Sequence record: MT682705.1
Reading direction: 5' to 3' (one strand)
Source: Escherichia phage vB_EcoS_SP8
DNA: 57,585 nt
In this document: positions 11,402 to 41,457 of the stretch, piece after piece
How positions within the stretch are numbered: the stretch's first letter is position 1
Layout of the letters: every line of letters starts with the position of its first letter
Notes under the pieces: model-generated
The model's database searches: none
Told to the model about the DNA's origin: nothing
The model's input: the letters and a program-made list of their open reading frames with translations, nothing else
Program-made: the position numbers and the translations under genes

Positions 11402-11775
11402 TAGGAACCAACTTTAACGTAACTAATGATTGTAGTTCCACCCGCACCGATAGGCTCAACAGCATTAACGACGAACGAGCGCCCTTTGTGGTCAATAAAT
11501 TTAAAACTAATGCAATCTTCCAGACTAATACCGTCCGGTTCGTAAGTGATAAAGACCTTTTCACCTTGAAGAACTATACTACCGTTTACGTTAGTCTTTG
11601 ACTGCTCGTCATAGAACAAACGCAGTGGTATTTCTTGTTCTTTAAAAGTCGGAGCCCAAGGCTTTGATTCACTTCCATCTTCTTTTACTTTAACAATGAG
11701 TGTTCCATCAAAACCAATTTCTTGGTCGTTCAACATCTCATGTGCCATTGCAATAAATTCTGAAGCAATTGTCAT
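11401..11775 (-). CDS. hypothetical head-tail joining protein
   Basis: ORF in connector region; overlapping start/stop with neighbours. Confidence 0.35.
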   Translation of the reverse strand: MTIASEFIAMAHEMLNDQEIGFDGTLIVKVKEDGSESKPWAPTFKEQEIPLRLFYDEQSKTNVNGSIVLQGEKVFITYEPDGISLEDCISFKFIDHKGRSFVVNAVEPIGAGGTTIISYVKVGS

Positions 11776-24267: not shown

Positions 24268-24415
24268 AATAGATCTCCTCTCGAGTATTTACATACGGAA
24301 TTAACTTTATACGAACAATATAGGGCAGGTGAGGTGAGGATATAAAGTGTCTAGTGACGAGATAATCTACAAATGATGAATCCTTGGCAGAGATCTAAGA
24401 GCCGCCCCGCGGCGT

Positions 24416-24488: not shown

Positions 24489-24620
24489 TGTTTATTGTTA
24501 CACGCGTTATTATTTTTTATTTGATTAGTGTGCTATCTATTACATGACTATACTATACCGTCCAGTGTAATTACATCTGTTACTATCCACCTGCCCACTA
24601 TATGCTGTCTATGTATGTGC

Positions 24621-24690
24621 TACCTGGTATTTCCGGCGTGTGCTGTTACCTGGTATTTTCAGCACGCTCGCGCTACCTGGTATTTCCGGC
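24621..24690. repeat. three direct repeats TACCTGGTATTTCCGGC at 26-27 bp spacing
   Basis: copies at about 24621, 24647 and 24674 (middle copy with 3 mismatches); upstream of the early promoter. Confidence 0.6.
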
Positions 24691-24768: not shown

Positions 24769-24797
24769 TTGCATCTGATACCCTGCTGTCATATTAT
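24769..24797 (+). promoter_or_regulatory. candidate sigma70-type early promoter
   Basis: TTGCAT, 17-bp spacer, TATTAT; followed by a 5' UTR hairpin (AAGCGGG...CCCGCTT) and RBS GGGAGA before the ATG at 24873. Confidence 0.45.
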
Positions 24798-24872: not shown

Positions 24873-25178
24873 ATGTCCATTATCTACTTACCGCGTTCTA
24901 TGTCCCAGTCCATGATCACCAAACGTATTATCGGCAAGCGCCTGTATCAGCTGGACCTTACTGCGGAAAAAGTCGACGGGGATTGGGGTTTCGACGAGTA
25001 TTTAGTAATGCTCCCGGGCAACGAAAAGTATTCCAGCACCCCGTTATATATTCGCATTAATGAGGACGGTACTGTTAGCTCTCACGCTGTAATGTACGGC
25101 CGAGCAGTATGCCAAGCGAATAGTCTTTGGTCTGTGTTCTGCTTTATTACAATGATAGCGAAGGCCATTCAACAATAA
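24873..25178 (+). CDS. hypothetical early protein
   Basis: 101-aa ORF, first plus-strand gene; RBS GGGAGA. Confidence 0.45.
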   Translation: MSIIYLPRSMSQSMITKRIIGKRLYQLDLTAEKVDGDWGFDEYLVMLPGNEKYSSTPLYIRINEDGTVSSHAVMYGRAVCQANSLWSVFCFITMIAKAIQQ

Positions 25179-25192
25179 TAGCGTGCTAATGG

Positions 25193-25233
25193 TTGCCCAT
25201 TGTAACAGTGGGCTCCCACTAGCAATCCGCTAG
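25193..25233 (+). promoter_or_regulatory. conserved intergenic hairpin element, copy 1
   Basis: TTGCCCATTGTAACAGTGGGC then GCAATCCGCTAG; near-identical copy at 26738-26779. Confidence 0.4.
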
Positions 25234-25254
25234 AACAACATGGAGATATTCACA

Positions 25255-25734
25255 ATGGTTACTATCACCCGTGTAGCAAAAGACGCTCGCTTCTTCGCCA
25301 CTATGTCTAACGCTCGCCGCGCCTTGAAAAAGGTTCTGGATGTAGACACAGCGACAGCTAACAGCTTTATTCACCAGGAACCGCACGAAGACGGTGGCCG
25401 CTACTGGTTCAGCGAAAGCGCCGTTAATAAGGCGGCTAGCGATCTGGTTGAAGCTGATAAAGCAACTGTCGTGGAAGTGACCACACAACAAGCTCCGGTC
25501 GCTCCCGCTAAAAGTAAAACGCGCAGCGAAACGCGCAACGGGGTCCGTCGCCCGATCAAAGGTAAATGCGCAGACGTTTGGAACGCTCTGGATAACATGT
25601 TACCTAATGGTGTGCCAACTATTGGTAACGTCCGTGACCTTGCGAAAGCTAATGGCTGGAATATTAATAACGCAACGATTGAATTCTACGCATGGCGTAA
25701 ATTCAACGGGCTCAATAATAAAGAGGGCAATTAA
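25255..25734 (+). CDS. hypothetical early protein
   Basis: start at ATG (MVTITRV) preceded by GGAGA. Confidence 0.4.
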   Translation: MVTITRVAKDARFFATMSNARRALKKVLDVDTATANSFIHQEPHEDGGRYWFSESAVNKAASDLVEADKATVVEVTTQQAPVAPAKSKTRSETRNGVRRPIKGKCADVWNALDNMLPNGVPTIGNVRDLAKANGWNINNATIEFYAWRKFNGLNNKEGN

Positions 25735-25812
25735 TTATGTTCTACTTATTAGCGTTCTTGATATTCGGAGCTCCAATAGTTGCGGGTCTGTATTATACGG
25801 AGGGTAAATAAT

Positions 25813-25998
25813 ATGGAAACTATCGTTCTGACTTGTTGGGTTGACCTGGACGATCACGAATATTGCGTGAATATTAACAACGGACCAGTCCCGGACGCAA
25901 CTTTCGCATCCTATGACGAAATGGATGCGTATGTAAAAGGTTTCCGCGAATGCGCTCGCACTGCAAATATTAACGTGACTGTAATTTTACCGGAGTGA
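25813..25998 (+). CDS. hypothetical small early protein
   Basis: start at ATG (METIVL) preceded by GGAGGG. Confidence 0.4.
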   Translation: METIVLTCWVDLDDHEYCVNINNGPVPDATFASYDEMDAYVKGFRECARTANINVTVILPE

Positions 25999-26003
25999 TT
26001 ATC

Positions 26004-26270
26004 ATGCGTAAAGCTAACAAGAATTCTTTCGTTGAAATGGCTCGTGTTGTTCTCAACCGTCAGTCCTTCTACCTGTACCACCGTCACGAATTTGATCTGT
26101 GGACTGAAGAGGAAACGTGCTGCCAGTACGAGATCCATACACGGAATGGTGTAATATTCACTTCCAGTAATTATCCGGAAGTTAAAGAATACTGGGACAA
26201 GCTGATCGCTGAAGCGTATGCTGAATTCCAGAAGCAAACTATTTACCTGATGGGCCTTCGCGCTGAGTAA
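26004..26270 (+). CDS. hypothetical small early protein
   Basis: start at ATG (MRKANK) preceded by GGAGTGA. Confidence 0.4.
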   Translation: MRKANKNSFVEMARVVLNRQSFYLYHRHEFDLWTEEETCCQYEIHTRNGVIFTSSNYPEVKEYWDKLIAEAYAEFQKQTIYLMGLRAE

Positions 26271-26305
26271 TTATTAACGTCAACATAATTTAAGGAGTGA
26301 CTATC

Positions 26306-26554
26306 ATGGCACAAGCAATTATCACCAAATTCCTGGCTCCAACTATGTCCCGTGGCGATCGTGTAAAAGCAACATGTTGGAATAGTTCCGTGACTATTGC
26401 CTGGAGTTACCAGTTGGACACATACGGAAACCACCGCGCCGCAGTGGAAGAGCTGGTCAAAAAGTTAAACGCTAAAATGGACGCCGAGTTTAAGATCGTA
26501 GCTGGTGGAGAGCTCCCGGATCAAAGCGGTTACGCGTTCATCATCACTGCATAA
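26306..26554 (+). CDS. hypothetical small early protein (paralogue-like to 26798..27043)
   Basis: start at ATG (MAQAII) preceded by AAGGAG; similar length and residue pattern to the 26798 gene product. Confidence 0.4.
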   Translation: MAQAIITKFLAPTMSRGDRVKATCWNSSVTIAWSYQLDTYGNHRAAVEELVKKLNAKMDAEFKIVAGGELPDQSGYAFIITA

Positions 26555-26564
26555 GGGGATAATT

Positions 26565-26729
26565 ATGGAACGCAACTATTTCCAGTTTATTTATCGCGGT
26601 CGTTGCTATCACATCCGTAACAAGTTTCGCAACCTGACCCGCGATCAACTTGAGTACGCTATTAATCTGGTGAGTGATGGTCACTTCGCTACACTATCAG
26701 AAGCGTTAGAATATCTGTCCGCTGAGTGA
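26565..26729 (+). CDS. hypothetical small early protein
   Basis: 54-codon ORF starting at ATG (MERNYF) preceded by AAGGGG. Confidence 0.35.
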   Translation: MERNYFQFIYRGRCYHIRNKFRNLTRDQLEYAINLVSDGHFATLSEALEYLSAE

Positions 26730-26737
26730 CATATACA

Positions 26738-26779
26738 TTGCCCATAGTAACAGTGGGCAATAATATGCAATCCGCATAG
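26738..26779 (+). promoter_or_regulatory. conserved intergenic hairpin element, copy 2
   Basis: TTGCCCATAGTAACAGTGGGCAA then GCAATCCGCATAG upstream of the 26798 gene. Confidence 0.4.
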
Positions 26780-26797
26780 TTAACTGAGGAAATTATT

Positions 26798-27043
26798 ATG
26801 CAAGCTATCCATGTAAAAACACTGTCCGCCACCGAAACGAAATGTCGTCGCTATAAAGCTGTTGGCCTTGATATGTGTGTTGTCACCCCCATCGACTACA
26901 GACTCAACAGCGAAGCGAATGCAGCTTATGCAGCGCAAGAGCTTGTGGACCGGTACAACGCTCGCGCCCAGTGGAAGGTTCGCATTGTTGGTATCGGTAC
27001 GCTTCCAGATAATACCTGGGCGGTACTATTAGATAACAAATAA
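26798..27043 (+). CDS. hypothetical small early protein
   Basis: 81-aa ORF with RBS GAGGAAA; followed by a strong intrinsic terminator. Confidence 0.45.
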   Translation: MQAIHVKTLSATETKCRRYKAVGLDMCVVTPIDYRLNSEANAAYAAQELVDRYNARAQWKVRIVGIGTLPDNTWAVLLDNK

Positions 27044-27066
27044 CTTCTAAACCATTATACAATCCG

Positions 27067-27102
27067 CGCCCTGTTGAAGTCCAACGGGGCGTTTTTGTTT
27101 TT
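27067..27102 (+). terminator. rho-independent terminator ending the early operon
   Basis: 10-bp stem CGCCCTGTTG / CAACGGGGCG (one G-U pair), 5-nt loop, followed by TTTTTGTTTTTG. Confidence 0.7.
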
Positions 27103-27596
27103 GTACCCGCACCACCTCCCGCGCTACCCTGCTGACCACATATTCCTCACCCATAACTCCACCATTCGCGCTCTAAGAACCTGAATCCCTCTTCCGTACA
27201 TTACCATTGACTCCAATTCAGTCGCCTTATACGCCCTTACAGTGATCCACTCCCTGCTTCCCTGTACGCGATTTTGCGGCATTTTCGCCCCTCACCGCCA
27301 CCCTTACACCGATCCAACCAGTTAATCGCGCTACGCGCCCCGTTTTCGCGGCTATTTTCGCTTTATGGGCGACCCGTTACCCCGATCTCAGCTACCCAAC
27401 CTCACCGAAAAGCCGGCTTTGCCCGAAAAATCCGGCATTTATACCATAAAATAGAATCGTTTTCGGGCTACAAAATTTCAAACTCGCAAATCGCTTTCAC
27501 TTCGAGAGTTACCTCAGCAAAAATCGCTTGCAATCCACTTTTCTTTTGTGTTAGACGCGCGGACGCGCATTATGCGCAGGCGCCAGGCTCTGCCCT

Positions 27597-28018
27597 GTCT
27601 ACTGACGAGCCAGATTTATAAAGTTAATAAATTCGTATATTTTCGCGTAATGTACGAAATGAAAGGGGGTAAGTGCATGAAAAATAAGGTAAAAAATGTG
27701 TGTATGTGTGTATTTATATAAATTTTATAAAGATTTTTTGTTTTTTTAGTTGTCTACTGACGACCCTACGAGACCCCTTTATAAAATTTATAAATTCCCA
27801 CGTTCCCCCCAACTCTCGAAATTTTCCCTTATTTTTCATACACTTCGCTTCGCCGTTTCGTATGTTGCTGGATCTTTATAAATTGTGCATTTTTTCACCG
27901 ATCTTTATAAATTTGCAATTTCTCACCTTCAGACTGCTGTAATTTTTGCAAAAGCAAAAACTTTGCATATACAAACACCGCAAAATGTCACAATTGCAAA
28001 TAGCAAAAACTTCGCATA
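27597..28018. repeat. cluster of direct repeats in a 1-kb non-coding region
   Basis: GTCTACTGACGA at about 27597 and 27752; GATCTTTATAAATT at about 27871 and 27900; AGCAAAAACTT(T/C)GCATA at about 27953 and 28002; TTTATAAA recurring at least 5 times. Confidence 0.6.
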
Positions 28019-28079
28019 AATTAAAACTTGGCAACTGAATTTCAAAATTAATCGATTTTATTTAGTCAAGGGTGAGGTT

Positions 28080-28700
28080 ATGCGCAATCGTAATATTGAA
28101 ATAACGCACGCACACGTACAGGAAATGTTCGGTTATGACGAACAAATGTATGCCAAAGCGGTAGCCATATTAGAACAGCACAAAGACAGCCTAAGTAATG
28201 TGGTCAAAGCGTGGAAGGAGGCTGGCCTCGTGTTGCGGCCGAATGCGGTCAAGAAGTTAGATGACGGGCGGATGTATATGTGCTGGTCGGCTCCGATGTT
28301 GGGTATGATGTTTACTGTCGACATCTACTTCGGGTACTGGTTGTTAGAGGTGGATTGTGTGATTCCGCTCGACAAGTATATGCACAGTAAAGGATTCAAC
28401 AGTTGCTTTGACGTGTGTCCTGATACGGAAGGCAACGCTGTTATGATCCTGGGCTTTAAGTGGGTCGGCGATAAGTGTGAAATTAGGCCGTTGCGATACC
28501 CGCGTGGTAAAGCCCGTCGTGCATATATTGAAGATGGTGTTGTTGGCTGGTGTGATGTACAGAAGCGTCGGATGGGTGCTAACCACATTGCGCATATCAA
28601 GGAGTGCCTCGTTAGACTTCAGGCGAATAATAGTGGTAATGTGCAGTTACAGCAAGAACTGCAAGAGCTCATTGAATACATTGATCAGTTTGGAGCGTAA
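28080..28700 (+). CDS. hypothetical protein
   Basis: 206-aa ORF, first gene after the repeat-rich non-coding region; RBS GGGTGAGG. Confidence 0.45.
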   Translation: MRNRNIEITHAHVQEMFGYDEQMYAKAVAILEQHKDSLSNVVKAWKEAGLVLRPNAVKKLDDGRMYMCWSAPMLGMMFTVDIYFGYWLLEVDCVIPLDKYMHSKGFNSCFDVCPDTEGNAVMILGFKWVGDKCEIRPLRYPRGKARRAYIEDGVVGWCDVQKRRMGANHIAHIKECLVRLQANNSGNVQLQQELQELIEYIDQFGA

Positions 28701-40537: not shown

Positions 40538-41457
40538 TGGCCGGTTTAGGAATGCAATTTAACGCTGGACAACACGCAGAGCGTCAACACAATAGCTTGA
40601 TGCCAGCTGGTTGGTATGTTGTTCAGATTGTAAACTCTGAGATCAAACCGACTAAAACTCCAGGCGGTGCGCGTCTGAATCTTCAGTTTAAGATTATGCA
40701 GGGTGATTTTGCTGGTCGTGTAATGTTTGGCGGTTACAACGTCAAAAACGCAAACCCTGTCGCTGTACAGATTGCAATGGAAGAACTGGCAGAGCTGTCC
40801 CGTGCTGTTAAAGTTCCAGTCTGGAACGATACTGAACAACTGCACGGTATTCCGTTCAACCTGAAAGTGAAAGTTCGTCAGCAACCTGGCTATGAGCCAA
40901 ACAACGAACCTCAGATTTATCAAGCAATTGATAATATGGAAGGTGTTGTATACGCAACTAAAGCGGATATGGCTAACCTGCCTAAATCAACTCCAGCAGC
41001 GGCAGCACAGTCTCCAGCATTTGGTGGCGGTGCGTTCGGTGGTACTCAGCAGCCACAGCAGCAACCGCAGCAGGGTTTCCCGGGCGCATTTGGGCAGCAG
41101 CCGCAGCAACAGCAGCAGCAACCTCAGACTCAGGGGTTCCAGCAGCAACAACAGCAACAACAGCCGCAGCAGCCGGTACAGCAACAGCAGCAACCGCAGC
41201 AGTCTGGAACAGTTGATTTTAACAGTGCGGCACAATCTCAACCGTGGGCTAATGGTGCGCAGAAGCAGACTCAGCAGCAACCTAACTGGGCAACTCAGCA
41301 GGTACAGCCTGGAGCAGAGCAACCGCAAACTCAAGCTCAGAATACTGGTACTGCTAACCATGCAGAACCTGAAGTCCAGGATGATATCGCTAAAGCAGCT
41401 CAGACCAAGACTCCACCGTGGAAACGTTCCACTGAAGGCGATGACGCTGCACAGTAA
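40537..41457 (+). CDS. putative ssDNA-binding protein with Gln/Pro-rich tail
   Basis: position after Sak4-like gene; internal 50-residue Q/P-rich low-complexity tract; function inferred from context only. Confidence 0.3.
   Translation: MAGLGMQFNAGQHAERQHNSLMPAGWYVVQIVNSEIKPTKTPGGARLNLQFKIMQGDFAGRVMFGGYNVKNANPVAVQIAMEELAELSRAVKVPVWNDTEQLHGIPFNLKVKVRQQPGYEPNNEPQIYQAIDNMEGVVYATKADMANLPKSTPAAAAQSPAFGGGAFGGTQQPQQQPQQGFPGAFGQQPQQQQQQPQTQGFQQQQQQQQPQQPVQQQQQPQQSGTVDFNSAAQSQPWANGAQKQTQQQPNWATQQVQPGAEQPQTQAQNTGTANHAEPEVQDDIAKAAQTKTPPWKRSTEGDDAAQ
41044..41202 (+). repeat. CAG/CAA-rich simple sequence tract encoding poly-Gln/Pro
   Basis: cagcagccacagcagcaaccgcagcag... read directly. Confidence 0.6.

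What the first reader, a model, noticed from the sequence alone, without database searches (positions are those of the whole stretch)
25193..26779. Conserved hairpin-containing element repeated upstream of two early genes
Two intergenic sites share TTGCCCAT(T/A)GTAACAGTGGGC followed about 8 nt later by GCAATCCGC(A)TAG; one lies before the 25255 gene and one before the 26798 gene. The first part can fold as a hairpin with no U-tract, so it is unlikely to be a simple terminator. It could be an RNase processing site, a translational operator or a binding site for an early regulator.
Basis: seen in the sequence. Interest (0 to 1): 0.5.

Follow-up and report, generated by a model that had tools for sequence, protein, structure and literature searches.

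The report
Conserved intercistronic RNA hairpin, early operon
The two repeated sites are copies of a conserved folded RNA hairpin of about 55 nt that sits between genes in the first-transcribed operon of 9g-like phages and their relatives, and it most resembles the RNase III cutting sites that separate the early genes of phage T7.

Summary
There are exactly two + strand copies, at 25193 and 26738, with none expected by chance.

The element is larger than described. The "hairpin" and the second box "GCAATCCGC" are the upper stem and the 3' lower strand of one irregular hairpin of about 55 nt and 20-21 bp (25179-25232 and 26721-26775). It begins at the upstream gene's stop codon and ends about 20 nt before the next start codon.

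The window is a Nonagvirus (phage 9g group), and the operon is the first DNA transcribed. A covariance model finds 1-3 copies per locus or genome examined in Nonagvirus, Seuratvirus, unclassified Queuovirinae and Craquatrovirus. Every copy lies between genes and is sense to the flanking genes, including copies in the divergent operon. Covariation is strong: 10 of 16 pairs change on both sides, and 0 of 500 shuffles reach the observed score. G.U pairs outnumber A.C mismatches 32 to 6, which points to + strand RNA.

The element has no U-tract, no Rfam match and no consistent sigma-70 geometry, and it does not occlude the RBS. Its geometry matches T7 early RNase III sites, but it is not homologous to them.

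The best reading is an mRNA processing/stability hairpin, probably cut by RNase III. This is unproven. It is an undescribed RNA family of a known kind and of moderate interest.

The parts
25179..25232 (+). Site 1, whole irregular hairpin (21 bp). Lower helix 3: 25179-83/25228-32. Lower helix 2: 25184-88/25220-24. Lower helix 1: 25190-92/25216-18. Upper stem: 25195-25202/25206-13. Triloop: 25203-05.
   Evidence: MFE -28.7 kcal/mol, z = -6.2, 0 of 300 shuffles as stable. CM hit of 42.4 bits, E = 1e-6.
25195..25213 (+).
   Evidence: In ten relatives only the loop centre varies. The stem covaries in distant relatives.
25219..25233 (+). Site 1 alternative small hairpin HP2 (CUAGC-AAUCC-GCUAG). It shares its 5' arm with the long hairpin's 3' strand. 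Its status is tentative.
   Evidence: It forms 3 nt from the 5' end of the RNA that a cut after the upper stem would leave. It is the only hairpin kept in L040/L079, as CCAGC-AAUC-GCUGG.
26721..26775 (+). Site 2, whole irregular hairpin (20 bp). Lower helices: 26721-22/26774-75, 26724-28/26768-72 and 26730-34/26763-67. Upper stem: 26737-45/26753-61. Loop: 26746-52.
   Evidence: MFE -20.6 kcal/mol, z = -3.7. CM hit of 65.8 bits, E = 8.5e-12.
26764..26778 (+). Site 2 alternative small hairpin HP2 (UAUGC-AAUCC-GCAUA). Its status is tentative.
   Evidence: It is not the MFE fold of the hypothetical processed RNA.
25176..25178 (+). Stop codon (UAA) of the upstream gene 24873-25178, immediately 5' of the hairpin base.
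   Evidence: The same arrangement holds in 20 of 21 annotated copies (annotation combined).
26727..26729 (+). Stop codon (UGA) of the upstream gene 26565-26729, inside the 5' strand of the lower stem.
25255..25734 (+). Gene downstream of site 1 (159 aa, phrog_17772). A copy of the element directly precedes its homolog in Nonagvirus, Seuratvirus, Craquatrovirus and the Klebsiella phage K9PH25C2.
   Evidence: AF2 model and Foldseek search were inconclusive.
26798..27043 (+). Gene downstream of site 2 (81 aa, phrog_3199, a paralog of 26306-26554). Other genes take this position in other phages.
24769..24797 (+). Candidate sigma-70 promoter of the operon (TTGCAT-17-TATTAT), read by eye. The 9g record has a BPROM-predicted promoter further upstream in the same divergent region.
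   Evidence: 9g paper PMC4276943.
27066..27102 (+). Strong intrinsic terminator that ends the operon (11-bp stem followed by a T-run).

Best explanation
Both sites are copies of a sense-strand RNA element in the polycistronic immediate-early mRNA. The element is an irregular hairpin of about 55 nt. It has a 9-11 bp upper stem with a conserved U.G pair, a small internal loop, and two or three short lower helices, for about 20-22 bp in all. Its 5' base overlaps the stop codon of the upstream gene, and its 3' base lies about 20 nt before the next start codon. I propose that it is an mRNA processing and stability signal of the kind known from the phage T7 early region. Host RNase III, which binds about 22 bp of dsRNA, would cut in the lower stem or the AU-rich 3' shoulder (about 25214-25224 and 26760-26770). 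That would separate the flanking cistrons and leave the upper stem as a 3'-terminal protective hairpin on the upstream mRNA. In Nonagvirus the released 3' strand could refold into the small hairpin HP2 near the new 5' end. What is shown: the structure, its conservation and covariation, its orientation and its placement. What is inferred: cleavage, the nuclease involved, and the consequences for mRNA stability. My rough sub-probabilities are 0.85-0.9 for a structured RNA element, 0.55 for endonucleolytic processing or stability control, and about 0.4-0.45 for RNase III specifically.
For: Exactly two + strand copies, with none expected by chance. All 14 divergent copies fold into a single hairpin of 18-25 bp with z from -3.3 to -7.5, and further lineages give 19-25 bp. 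Core helix on a MAFFT alignment: 88% of cells paired, 6 of 11 pairs changed on both sides, 0 of 500 shuffles as high. On 25 distinct CM-aligned copies: 10 of 16 pairs changed on both sides, covariation 0.339 against 0.124 for shuffles and at most 0.10 for slid registers. Lower helices covary: CAUAU/AUAUG, CUUAU/AUAAG, UUUAU/AUAAA and GGUUUA/UAAACC, and GAGUG/CACUU, GAGUG/CACUC, GAUUG/CAAUC and GGGUG/CAUCC. G.U outnumbers A.C by 32 to 6 cells in the core. Every copy lies between genes and is sense to them, including the copies between - strand genes in CAjan, Hafnia yong3 and CSP1C. The whole CAjan genome has exactly 3 copies, all within 1.3 kb of the divergent early promoters. In 20 of 21 annotated copies the upstream stop codon falls at model positions 1-9, and the next start follows 13-38 nt after the model (annotation calls). 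T7 early gaps of 63-80 nt (from the gene coordinates) fold into repeated, related hairpins of 21-25 bp with G.U pairs, an AU-rich 3' shoulder, and a lower stem that starts at the stop codon. RNase III accommodates about 22 bp, and the median distance between its two cuts in vivo is 58 nt (PMC6212723). The operon is the first part of the genome transcribed, when only host enzymes are present (PMC4276943).
Against: There are no cleavage data and no transcriptomics for these phages. The published RNase III pair-preference matrix could not be obtained, so sequence-level compatibility is untested. The family is not homologous to the T7 sites (best 8.7 bits, E = 2.8). The invariant primary sequence (UUGC...GCAA UAAUAA) would also fit a protein-binding site or promoter hexamers. 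One CAjan copy reaches the promoter scan threshold (TTGCCC-17-AATAAT). FritzHoffmann site 1 and L040 site 2 show that HP2 is dispensable. HP2 is not the MFE fold at site 2. The A3 alignment was fitted to the model, which inflates pair counts somewhat.
Confidence: 0.45

Rival explanations
1. The same RNA hairpin acts without RNase III. It would be a 3'-exonuclease barrier that stabilises the upstream cistron, and/or its AU-rich 3' shoulder (AAUAAUAAG / AAUAAUAUG) would be an RNase E site that is exposed when the terminating ribosome melts the lower stems.
For: The upper stem is stable and conserved. The upstream stop codon lies in or at the 5' strand of the lower stem, so a terminating ribosome must open it (and the position table). 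The AU-rich segment next to a stem is typical of RNase E sites (established knowledge).
Against: A simple barrier would not need the lower helices, yet they are maintained by covariation to a constant total of about 20 bp.
Confidence: 0.15
2. The hairpin is an RNA operator bound by a phage or host protein that controls translation or stability of the flanking genes. One candidate is the conserved 159-aa protein encoded just downstream of site 1.
For: Primary sequence is invariant in the stem ends and shoulder (UUGC, GCAAUAAUAA). A copy directly precedes the 159-aa gene homolog in several genera. That protein has a disordered basic linker and a three-helix bundle.
Against: Copies also lie between unrelated genes and in the opposite operon. 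RBS accessibility is not changed by the element. The protein has no significant structural or family match.
Confidence: 0.1
3. The element is a cis-acting antiterminator RNA of the HK022 put type. The nascent structure would modify RNA polymerase so that it reads through downstream terminators such as 27066-27102.
For: It occurs as related, structured, sense-oriented copies near the promoters in both divergent early operons. Strong terminators lie downstream in the window and in PSTCR7. A two-hairpin fold (upper stem plus HP2) is possible in Nonagvirus.
Against: HP2 is absent outside Nonagvirus and dispensable within it. Two copies in one operon and the strict placement from stop codon to SD are not expected for put. 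No terminator was found downstream in CAjan. Promoter-like repeats upstream of 28080 could drive the next operon (read by eye). I did not compare the sequence with put.
Confidence: 0.08
4. The element acts at the DNA level as an internal sigma-70 promoter (TTGCCC-17-TAATAT) with a palindromic operator for an early regulator.
For: Site 2 reads TTGCCC-17-TAATAT, which is 8 of 12. CAjan L069 1825-1853 is flagged as TTGCCC-17-AATAAT. TTGC and AATAAT are nearly invariant in type-2 copies. T7 also has minor E. coli promoters annotated in or near the same gaps.
Against: Site 1 and its orthologs have CCACTA at the -10 position. Neither window site is called by the promoter scan. The -35-like hexamer changes to ATGGGC, CTGCTC or TTGCAT with compensating changes in the other arm. 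The spacer varies from 14 to 19 nt, and the arms are 4-7 nt apart. The '-10' covaries with an upstream partner. G.U pairs are in excess.
Confidence: 0.07
5. The element is a translational coupling device. The hairpin would bring the upstream stop codon and the downstream SD close together so that terminating ribosomes re-initiate across the gap of about 70 nt.
For: The stop codon sits at the 5' base and the SD about 10-15 nt beyond the 3' base in nearly all copies (position table).
Against: The ribosome itself must melt the lower helices when it reaches the stop codon. Downstream genes have their own good SD sequences. There is no direct evidence.
Confidence: 0.05
6. The element is a single-stranded DNA hairpin on the lagging-strand template (a priming or replication signal), or merely a recombination scar or boundary sequence.
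For: The orientation flips across the divergent region, as replication strands would if the origin were there. G.T pairs are tolerated in DNA hairpins. The element sits at mosaic junctions and forms recombinant hybrids.
Against: The precise fit between stop codon and SD, and the restriction to the first few early genes, point to mRNA. Purifying selection with compensatory change over several genera is not expected of a scar.
Confidence: 0.04

Closest known systems
RNase III processing sites of the phage T7 early region (R0.3, R0.5, R1, R1.1, R1.3)
   Same: Both are families of several sequence-related copies per genome. Both are sense-oriented and lie in 63-86 nt gaps between genes of the early operon transcribed by host RNA polymerase. 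Both have an upper stem of about 10 bp with G.U pairs, an AU-rich conserved 3' shoulder, weak lower helices that begin at the upstream stop codon, and about 20-25 bp in total.
   Different: No sequence or structure homology was detected. Cleavage is not demonstrated here. Copy number is lower (1-3 per genome or locus examined), and in the two genomes scanned in full, or nearly so, all copies lie within about 2.5 kb of the divergent promoters. The positions of the T7 cleavage sites are recalled from Dunn & Studier 1983, because they are not annotated in the record I used.
HK022 putL/putR antiterminator RNAs
   Same: Both are related structured RNAs, sense-oriented and near the promoters in the two divergent early operons. 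Terminators lie downstream in some of these phages.
   Different: put consists of two defined stem-loops acting on RNA polymerase. Here the conserved unit is one long hairpin, and the second hairpin is lineage-specific and dispensable. Several copies can occur in one operon. No functional or sequence comparison was possible.
T4-type PeSL cassettes (promoter-early stem-loop; Arbiol et al. 2010, recalled from memory)
   Same: Both are short conserved intergenic stem-loop-containing repeats between small early genes that coincide with mosaic or recombination junctions.
   Different: A PeSL is a stem-loop followed by a genuine sigma-70 early promoter. Here most copies lack a usable promoter, and the '-10-like' box is a helix strand.
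Lambda nut sites (boxA + boxB)
   Same: Both are small GC-rich hairpins in early transcripts, with one copy just upstream of an early regulator-like gene.
   Different: boxB is a 5-bp stem with a fixed pentaloop preceded by boxA. Here the stem is 8-11 bp, loops vary from 3 to 7 nt, and no boxA is present.

Membership tests
T7-type phage RNase III processing site | Cleaved by RNase III in vivo or in vitro | not testable with these tools
   No transcript-end data exist for these phages.
T7-type phage RNase III processing site | Irregular hairpin of about two helical turns (about 20-22 bp) with an internal loop | tested here: met
   18-25 bp in 14 copies and 19-25 bp in 12 copies. RNase III holds about 22 bp (PMC6212723).
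T7-type phage RNase III processing site | Sense-oriented, in intercistronic gaps of an early polycistronic mRNA, with several related copies | tested here: met
   combined with the annotation tables. T7 gaps are compared.
T7-type phage RNase III processing site | Base-pair preferences around the cleavage site (proximal and distal boxes) | not testable with these tools
   The matrix (Table S4 of PMC6212723) is not held.
T7-type phage RNase III processing site | Homology to the T7 R-site sequences | tested here: not met
   Model R1 on the T7 early region gives at best 8.7 bits, E = 2.8. The relation is analogy, not common descent.
Intrinsic (Rho-independent) terminator | GC-rich stem immediately followed by a U-tract | tested here: not met
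   Neither site is listed by the terminator scan. The tails are UCCCACUA and AAUAAUAU.
Sigma-70 promoter | -35 and -10 hexamers with a 17+/-1 spacer, conserved among copies | tested here: not met
   Site 2 scores 8 of 12, and site 1 has CCACTA at the -10 position. Neither is called. Hexamers and spacing are not conserved, and arms flip. One CAjan copy reaches 9 of 12.
Dimeric-regulator DNA operator (palindrome) | Fixed half-site spacing, symmetric half-sites and no strand bias | tested here: not met
   The arms are 4, 5 or 7 nt apart. The asymmetries are G.U on the sense strand, 32 cells against 6 A.C.
Lambda nut (boxA/boxB) | 5-bp boxB stem with a GNRA-like pentaloop, and boxA upstream | tested here: not met
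   Stems are 8-11 bp, loops are 3-7 nt and variable, and there is no boxA.
HK022 put | Two stem-loops that act in cis to suppress downstream terminators | tested here: inconclusive
   A two-hairpin fold is possible only in Nonagvirus. A terminator lies downstream in the window and PSTCR7 but none was found in CAjan. Activity is not testable here.
Any Rfam 15 family | Match at the gathering score, or a suggestive E-value | tested here: not met
   No hit in the whole window and none at the sites with E up to 10.

The most novel reading that the evidence does not exclude
The element may not be a passive cleavage site. It could be a co-transcriptional RNA device. One possibility is a factor-independent, put-like antiterminator that lets host RNA polymerase read through the strong terminator at 27066. 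Another is a switch that senses translation termination: the ribosome stopping at the codon embedded in the lower stem would flip the RNA from the long hairpin to the upper stem plus HP2 fold, and so gate processing and expression of the next gene.
Probability: 0.1. Interest if true: 0.7.

Novelty: new member of a known kind. Interest (0 to 1): 0.45.

Why it matters
If correct, this defines an unannotated structured-RNA family, absent from Rfam, that is shared by Queuovirinae and Craquatrovirus phages. It would show that siphoviruses with deazaguanine-modified DNA organise their very first transcripts as T7 does, by cutting a polycistronic early mRNA into separately stabilised messages with a host nuclease. 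It offers a concrete and easily tested handle (rnc hosts, end mapping) on early gene expression in the BASEL model phages Bas19 (ChristophMerian) and Bas20 (FritzHoffmann). It would improve annotation, since part of each early 'intergenic gap' is functional RNA rather than a promoter. It also explains why these gaps act as recombination junctions where early genes are swapped.

Tried and rejected
- Rfam at the gathering threshold and at E up to 10 found nothing.
- The IMG/VR pattern scan for the upper stem returned 44 loci. About 27 of them were chance matches, many of them coding sequence in GC-rich contigs, and only Nonagvirus-like contigs plus L021 were informative.
- The search for related loci with a single protein reached only close relatives. 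tblastn against phage records and the look-up of encoding contigs were needed to reach distant ones.
- A generic energy-based scan for long hairpins over the window gave about 94 hits per strand and did not discriminate.
- The sigma-54 -24/-12 reading (TGGGC-N-GCA with GG-N10-GC spacing) fits both window sites by eye but fails in L040 site 1 and L021. I dropped it.
- The RNase III pair-preference matrix is not held.
- The T7 RefSeq record lacks RNase III site features, so the site positions rest on memory.
- The structure prediction and Foldseek search for the 159-aa neighbour gave no significant hit, and neither did Pfam or PDB sequence searches.
- RBS-occlusion modelling showed no effect.
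- I first read HP2 as a second conserved hairpin. Later data show that its 'loop' bases pair and covary within the long hairpin, so HP2 is at most an alternative fold or a fold adopted after cleavage.
Full report
**Observation**

The 21-nt motif TTGCCCAT(T/A)GTAACAGTGGGC occurs at 25193-25213 and 26738-26758 on the + strand and nowhere else in the window, even with three mismatches allowed. No dinucleotide-preserving shuffle produced a match. GCAATCCGC follows 8 nt later at both sites, and the repeat finder links the two sites as one 38-nt family. Both sites are intergenic and lie 60-62 nt upstream of ATGs preceded by GGAG or GAGG (25255 and 26798). Neither site is called as an intrinsic terminator or as a sigma-70 promoter by the consensus scan.

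**Context**

The window is a Nonagvirus, 91-95% identical to phages 9g, SE1, BRET, JenK1 and others. The 9g paper places the physical left end of the genome and a pair of divergent promoters just upstream of this region, and it describes the rightward genes as the early region (PMC4276943).

In the window, a good candidate promoter (TTGCAT-17-TATTAT, 24769-24797, read by eye) precedes a compact operon running from 24873 to 27043. The operon ends at a strong terminator, an 11-bp stem plus T-run at 27066-27102. Site 1 lies between the first and second genes, and site 2 lies before the last gene. All the operon's proteins are of unknown function. The promoters annotated in the 9g record lie in the divergent region, not at the element.

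**Anatomy**

Folding showed that the second box also pairs: CUAGC-AAUCC-GCUAG at site 1 and UAUGC-AAUCC-GCAUA at site 2. Comparison with relatives then showed that the selected structure is larger.

- Site 1 spans 25179-25232: UAGCG-UGCUA-a-UGG-uu-GCCCAUUG-uaa-CAGUGGGC-uc-CCA-c-UAGCA-auc-CGCUA. It has 21 bp, an MFE of -28.7 kcal/mol and z = -6.2.
- Site 2 spans 26721-26775. It has 20 bp, an MFE of -20.6 kcal/mol and z = -3.7.
- The stop codon of the upstream gene abuts the hairpin base at site 1 (25176-78) and lies inside the 5' lower strand at site 2 (26727-29).

**Conservation and covariation**

All ten Nonagvirus relatives I fetched carry both sites. At site 1 only the centre of the triloop varies.

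Upstream of the homolog of gene 25255, more distant phages keep the hairpin with compensatory changes:

| Phage | Upper-stem arms |
|---|---|
| window | GCCCAUUG / CAGUGGGC |
| Ec1-ASingh | GCACAUUC / GAGUGUGC |
| Klebsiella K9PH25C2 | GCGCAUU / AGUGCGC |
| Providencia PSTCR4 and PSTCR7 | UUGCGCAUU / AGUGCGCAA |
| Seurat | UUGCCUACU / AGUGGGCAA |
| CAjan | CUGCUCAUC / GGUGGGCAG |
| Hafnia yong3 | UUGCCGACU / AGUCGGUAA |

On a MAFFT alignment of 14 copies, the core helix is 88% paired, 6 of 11 pairs change on both sides, and no shuffle out of 500 reaches the observed covariation.

A covariance model built from that alignment finds only the two + strand copies in the window (65.8 and 42.4 bits, against 18 and 16 bits for the reverse strand). 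It finds 30 significant copies in the relatives. On the 25 distinct sequences, 10 of 16 pairs change on both sides, 84% of cells are paired, and the covariation score is 0.339 against 0.124 for shuffles and at most 0.10 for slid registers. That alignment is fitted to the model, which inflates these numbers somewhat. The core columns are unambiguous, however, and the MAFFT-based count agrees.

The lower helices also covary:
- CAUAU/AUAUG, CUUAU/AUAAG, UUUAU/AUAAA and GGUUUA/UAAACC.
- GAGUG/CACUU, GAGUG/CACUC, GAUUG/CAAUC and GGGUG/CAUCC.

This means the -10-like 'TAATAW' and the 'loop' of the small second hairpin are both helix strands.

The total paired length stays at 18-25 bp, and mostly 19-22 bp, in every lineage.

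**RNA rather than DNA**

Four lines of evidence favour an RNA-level element.

1. Non-Watson-Crick cells in the core are mostly G.U on the sense strand: 32 cells against 6 A.C, or 7 against 2 when each column and pair type is counted once. This includes one-sided C-G to U.G changes in Seurat, CAjan, Hafnia yong3 and L078.
2. The two arms are 4, 5 or 7 nt apart in different phages, which is hard to reconcile with a dimeric DNA-binding protein.
3. Copies found between - strand genes in CAjan, Hafnia yong3 and CSP1C score on the - strand. The element therefore always lies sense to transcription.
4. Some copies flip the core G-C pairs (AUGGGC...GCCCAU), which destroys any -35-like hexamer while keeping the helix.

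Orientation alone would also fit promoters or lagging-strand DNA hairpins, so I keep those as minor rivals.

**Distribution**

In the complete CAjan genome there are exactly three copies, all within 1.3 kb of the divergent early promoters and each sense to its own operon. Across 21 annotated copies, the upstream stop codon falls at model positions 1-9 in 20 cases. The downstream start codon follows 13-38 nt after the model, and the stop-to-start gaps are 64-86 nt (annotation combined).

Where the 159-aa gene is the first gene of its operon (L040, L079), the long hairpin is absent and only a short 5'-UTR hairpin remains.

The element is not found in 5,426 E. coli genomes. By BLAST it is detectable only in Nonagvirus, so the distant copies need a structure-aware search. 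Rfam has no matching family, and I found no description of it in the literature.

**Mechanism**

The closest known system is the set of RNase III sites in the T7 early region. Using the gene boundaries in the T7 record, the 0.4/0.5, 0.7/1 and 1.2/1.3 gaps are 63-80 nt long. They fold into a repeated, sequence-related hairpin with an upper stem of about 10 bp containing G.U pairs (AAGGUCGCUC...GAGUGGCCUU), a conserved AU-rich 3' shoulder (UUAUGAUU), and weak lower helices that begin at the upstream stop codon. The folded gap regions contain 21-25 bp in total.

That these gaps hold sites R0.5, R1 and R1.3 is recalled from Dunn & Studier 1983. It is not a tool result.

RNase III accommodates about 22 bp, and the median distance between its two cuts in E. 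coli stem-loop targets is 58 nt (PMC6212723). Both figures match this element.

I therefore propose that host RNase III cuts the lower stem or 3' shoulder, separates the cistrons, and leaves the upper stem as a 3' protective hairpin. In Nonagvirus, the freed 3' strand could refold into HP2 near the new 5' end. It does so in silico at site 1 but not at site 2.

All of this is inference. The family is not homologous to the T7 sites, the RNase III pair-preference matrix could not be obtained, and there are no end-mapping data.

**Rivals**

- A sigma-70 promoter fits site 2 weakly (8 of 12) and one CAjan copy at 9 of 12. It fails at site 1 and in the flipped copies, and it cannot explain the covariation of the '-10' with its upstream partner.
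- A translational operator that works by occluding the RBS is not supported. The unpaired probability of the SD-to-AUG stretch is 0.47 in all contexts at site 1, and 0.43 rising to 0.61 at site 2.
- A protein-bound RNA operator remains possible because the stem ends and shoulder are invariant in sequence. The neighbouring 159-aa protein is uninformative. Its AF2 model has pLDDT 77 and shows two domains joined by a basic linker, but the best Foldseek E-value is 0.7.
- A put-like antiterminator is suggested by the promoter-proximal, bidirectional, sense-oriented placement and by the downstream terminators in the window and PSTCR7. It is weakened by the dispensability of HP2, by multiple copies in one operon, by the absence of a detected terminator in CAjan, and by promoter-like repeats ahead of the next operon.
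- An RNase E site or exonuclease barrier without RNase III is the most serious rival. It differs from my reading only in which nuclease acts.

**Side effect: mosaic junctions**

The element marks mosaic junctions. Site 2 is followed by at least three different genes and preceded by several different contexts. FritzHoffmann site 1 is a hybrid of a site-2-type left part and a site-1-type right part, with a restored perfect GAUUG/CAAUC helix. In L040 site 2 the element is fused at ATGCAA to the remnant of a gene start. Conserved intergenic RNA elements evidently serve as recombination points for exchanging early genes.

**Verdict**

This is a real, conserved, covarying structured RNA of the early operon, and an undescribed family of a known kind (phage intercistronic processing hairpins). 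My confidence is about 0.85-0.9 that it is a functional RNA structure and about 0.45 that it is specifically an RNase III-type processing site. Interest is moderate (0.45).

Noticed in passing
window 24619-24690: Three direct repeats of 19 nt (GCTACCTGGTATTTCCGGC, two of them identical) spaced 26-27 nt apart in the divergent promoter / genome-end region. They could be regulator, terminase or replication-protein binding sites (D10).
   Followed up: no
window 27100-28080: About 1 kb of non-coding DNA after the operon terminator, dense in repeats. TGTCTACTGACGA occurs twice (27597 and 27752, plus a variant at 24349). There are multiple TTTATAAA-type direct and inverted repeats, a 24-nt inverted repeat (27671/27822), and two TTGCAA...GCATA promoter-like repeats (27950-78 and 27999-28027). 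Possible roles are an origin, an ejection stop or a promoter array.
   Followed up: partly
window 25737-25811: An unlisted 24-codon ORF, MFYLLAFLIFGAPIVAGLYYTEGK. It is hydrophobic and conserved in the diverged contig L040 (about 11450-11524). It is annotated only in the BASEL phages and is probably a real small membrane peptide.
   Followed up: partly
window 26306-26554 and 26798-27043: These two genes of the operon are paralogs (both phrog_3199). One of them is the gene downstream of site 2.
   Followed up: no
L008 2240-2293 (phage FritzHoffmann): Site 1 is a recombinant. Its left part is of the site-2 type and its right part of the site-1 type, behind a different upstream gene. The lower helix is restored as a perfect GAUUG/CAAUC.
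   Followed up: yes
L040 11705-11790: The upper stem plus CAATATGCAA is fused to a remnant of the phrog_3199 gene's 5' end (ATGCAAGACATCCATGTTAAAGCACTAGC), followed by a different gene. This is a recombination scar at an ATGCAA microhomology.
   Followed up: partly
L021 6770-6830 (IMG/VR contig of 7.3 kb): An otherwise unrelated-looking contig has the identical upper stem TTGCCCATTG-TCT-CAGTGGGC, with the outer 3-bp helix swapped (CCA...UGG instead of UGG...CCA) and followed by a second hairpin, CCUGG-GCUUUU-CCAGG. It lies between two + strand genes and scores only 23.6 bits on the core. It could be a distant member or a chance match.
   Followed up: partly
L070 and L071 about 2055-2085; L074 about 2150-2175: Enterobacter EC151, Klebsiella K4PH164 and Pseudomonas JG054 have an unrelated hairpin in the leader of the same gene: GGGAGC..GCUUCC, GGGAGU..ACUCCC and GAUGCA..UGCAUC respectively. 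In JG054 it comes right after a terminator plus a TTGCAT-16-TATAGT promoter, so it sits at the 5' end of the mRNA.
   Followed up: no
window 25255-25734: The 159-aa protein is conserved across Queuovirinae and beyond (116 phage records). The model shows an N-terminal alpha/beta domain, a disordered basic linker (residues 71-87) and a C-terminal three-helix bundle. One record calls it a 'transcriptional activator'. There is no significant structural match.
   Followed up: partly
window 41040-41290: A run of CAG/CAA-rich imperfect repeats (a glutamine-rich low-complexity coding stretch) within a + strand gene (D1-D3).
   Followed up: no
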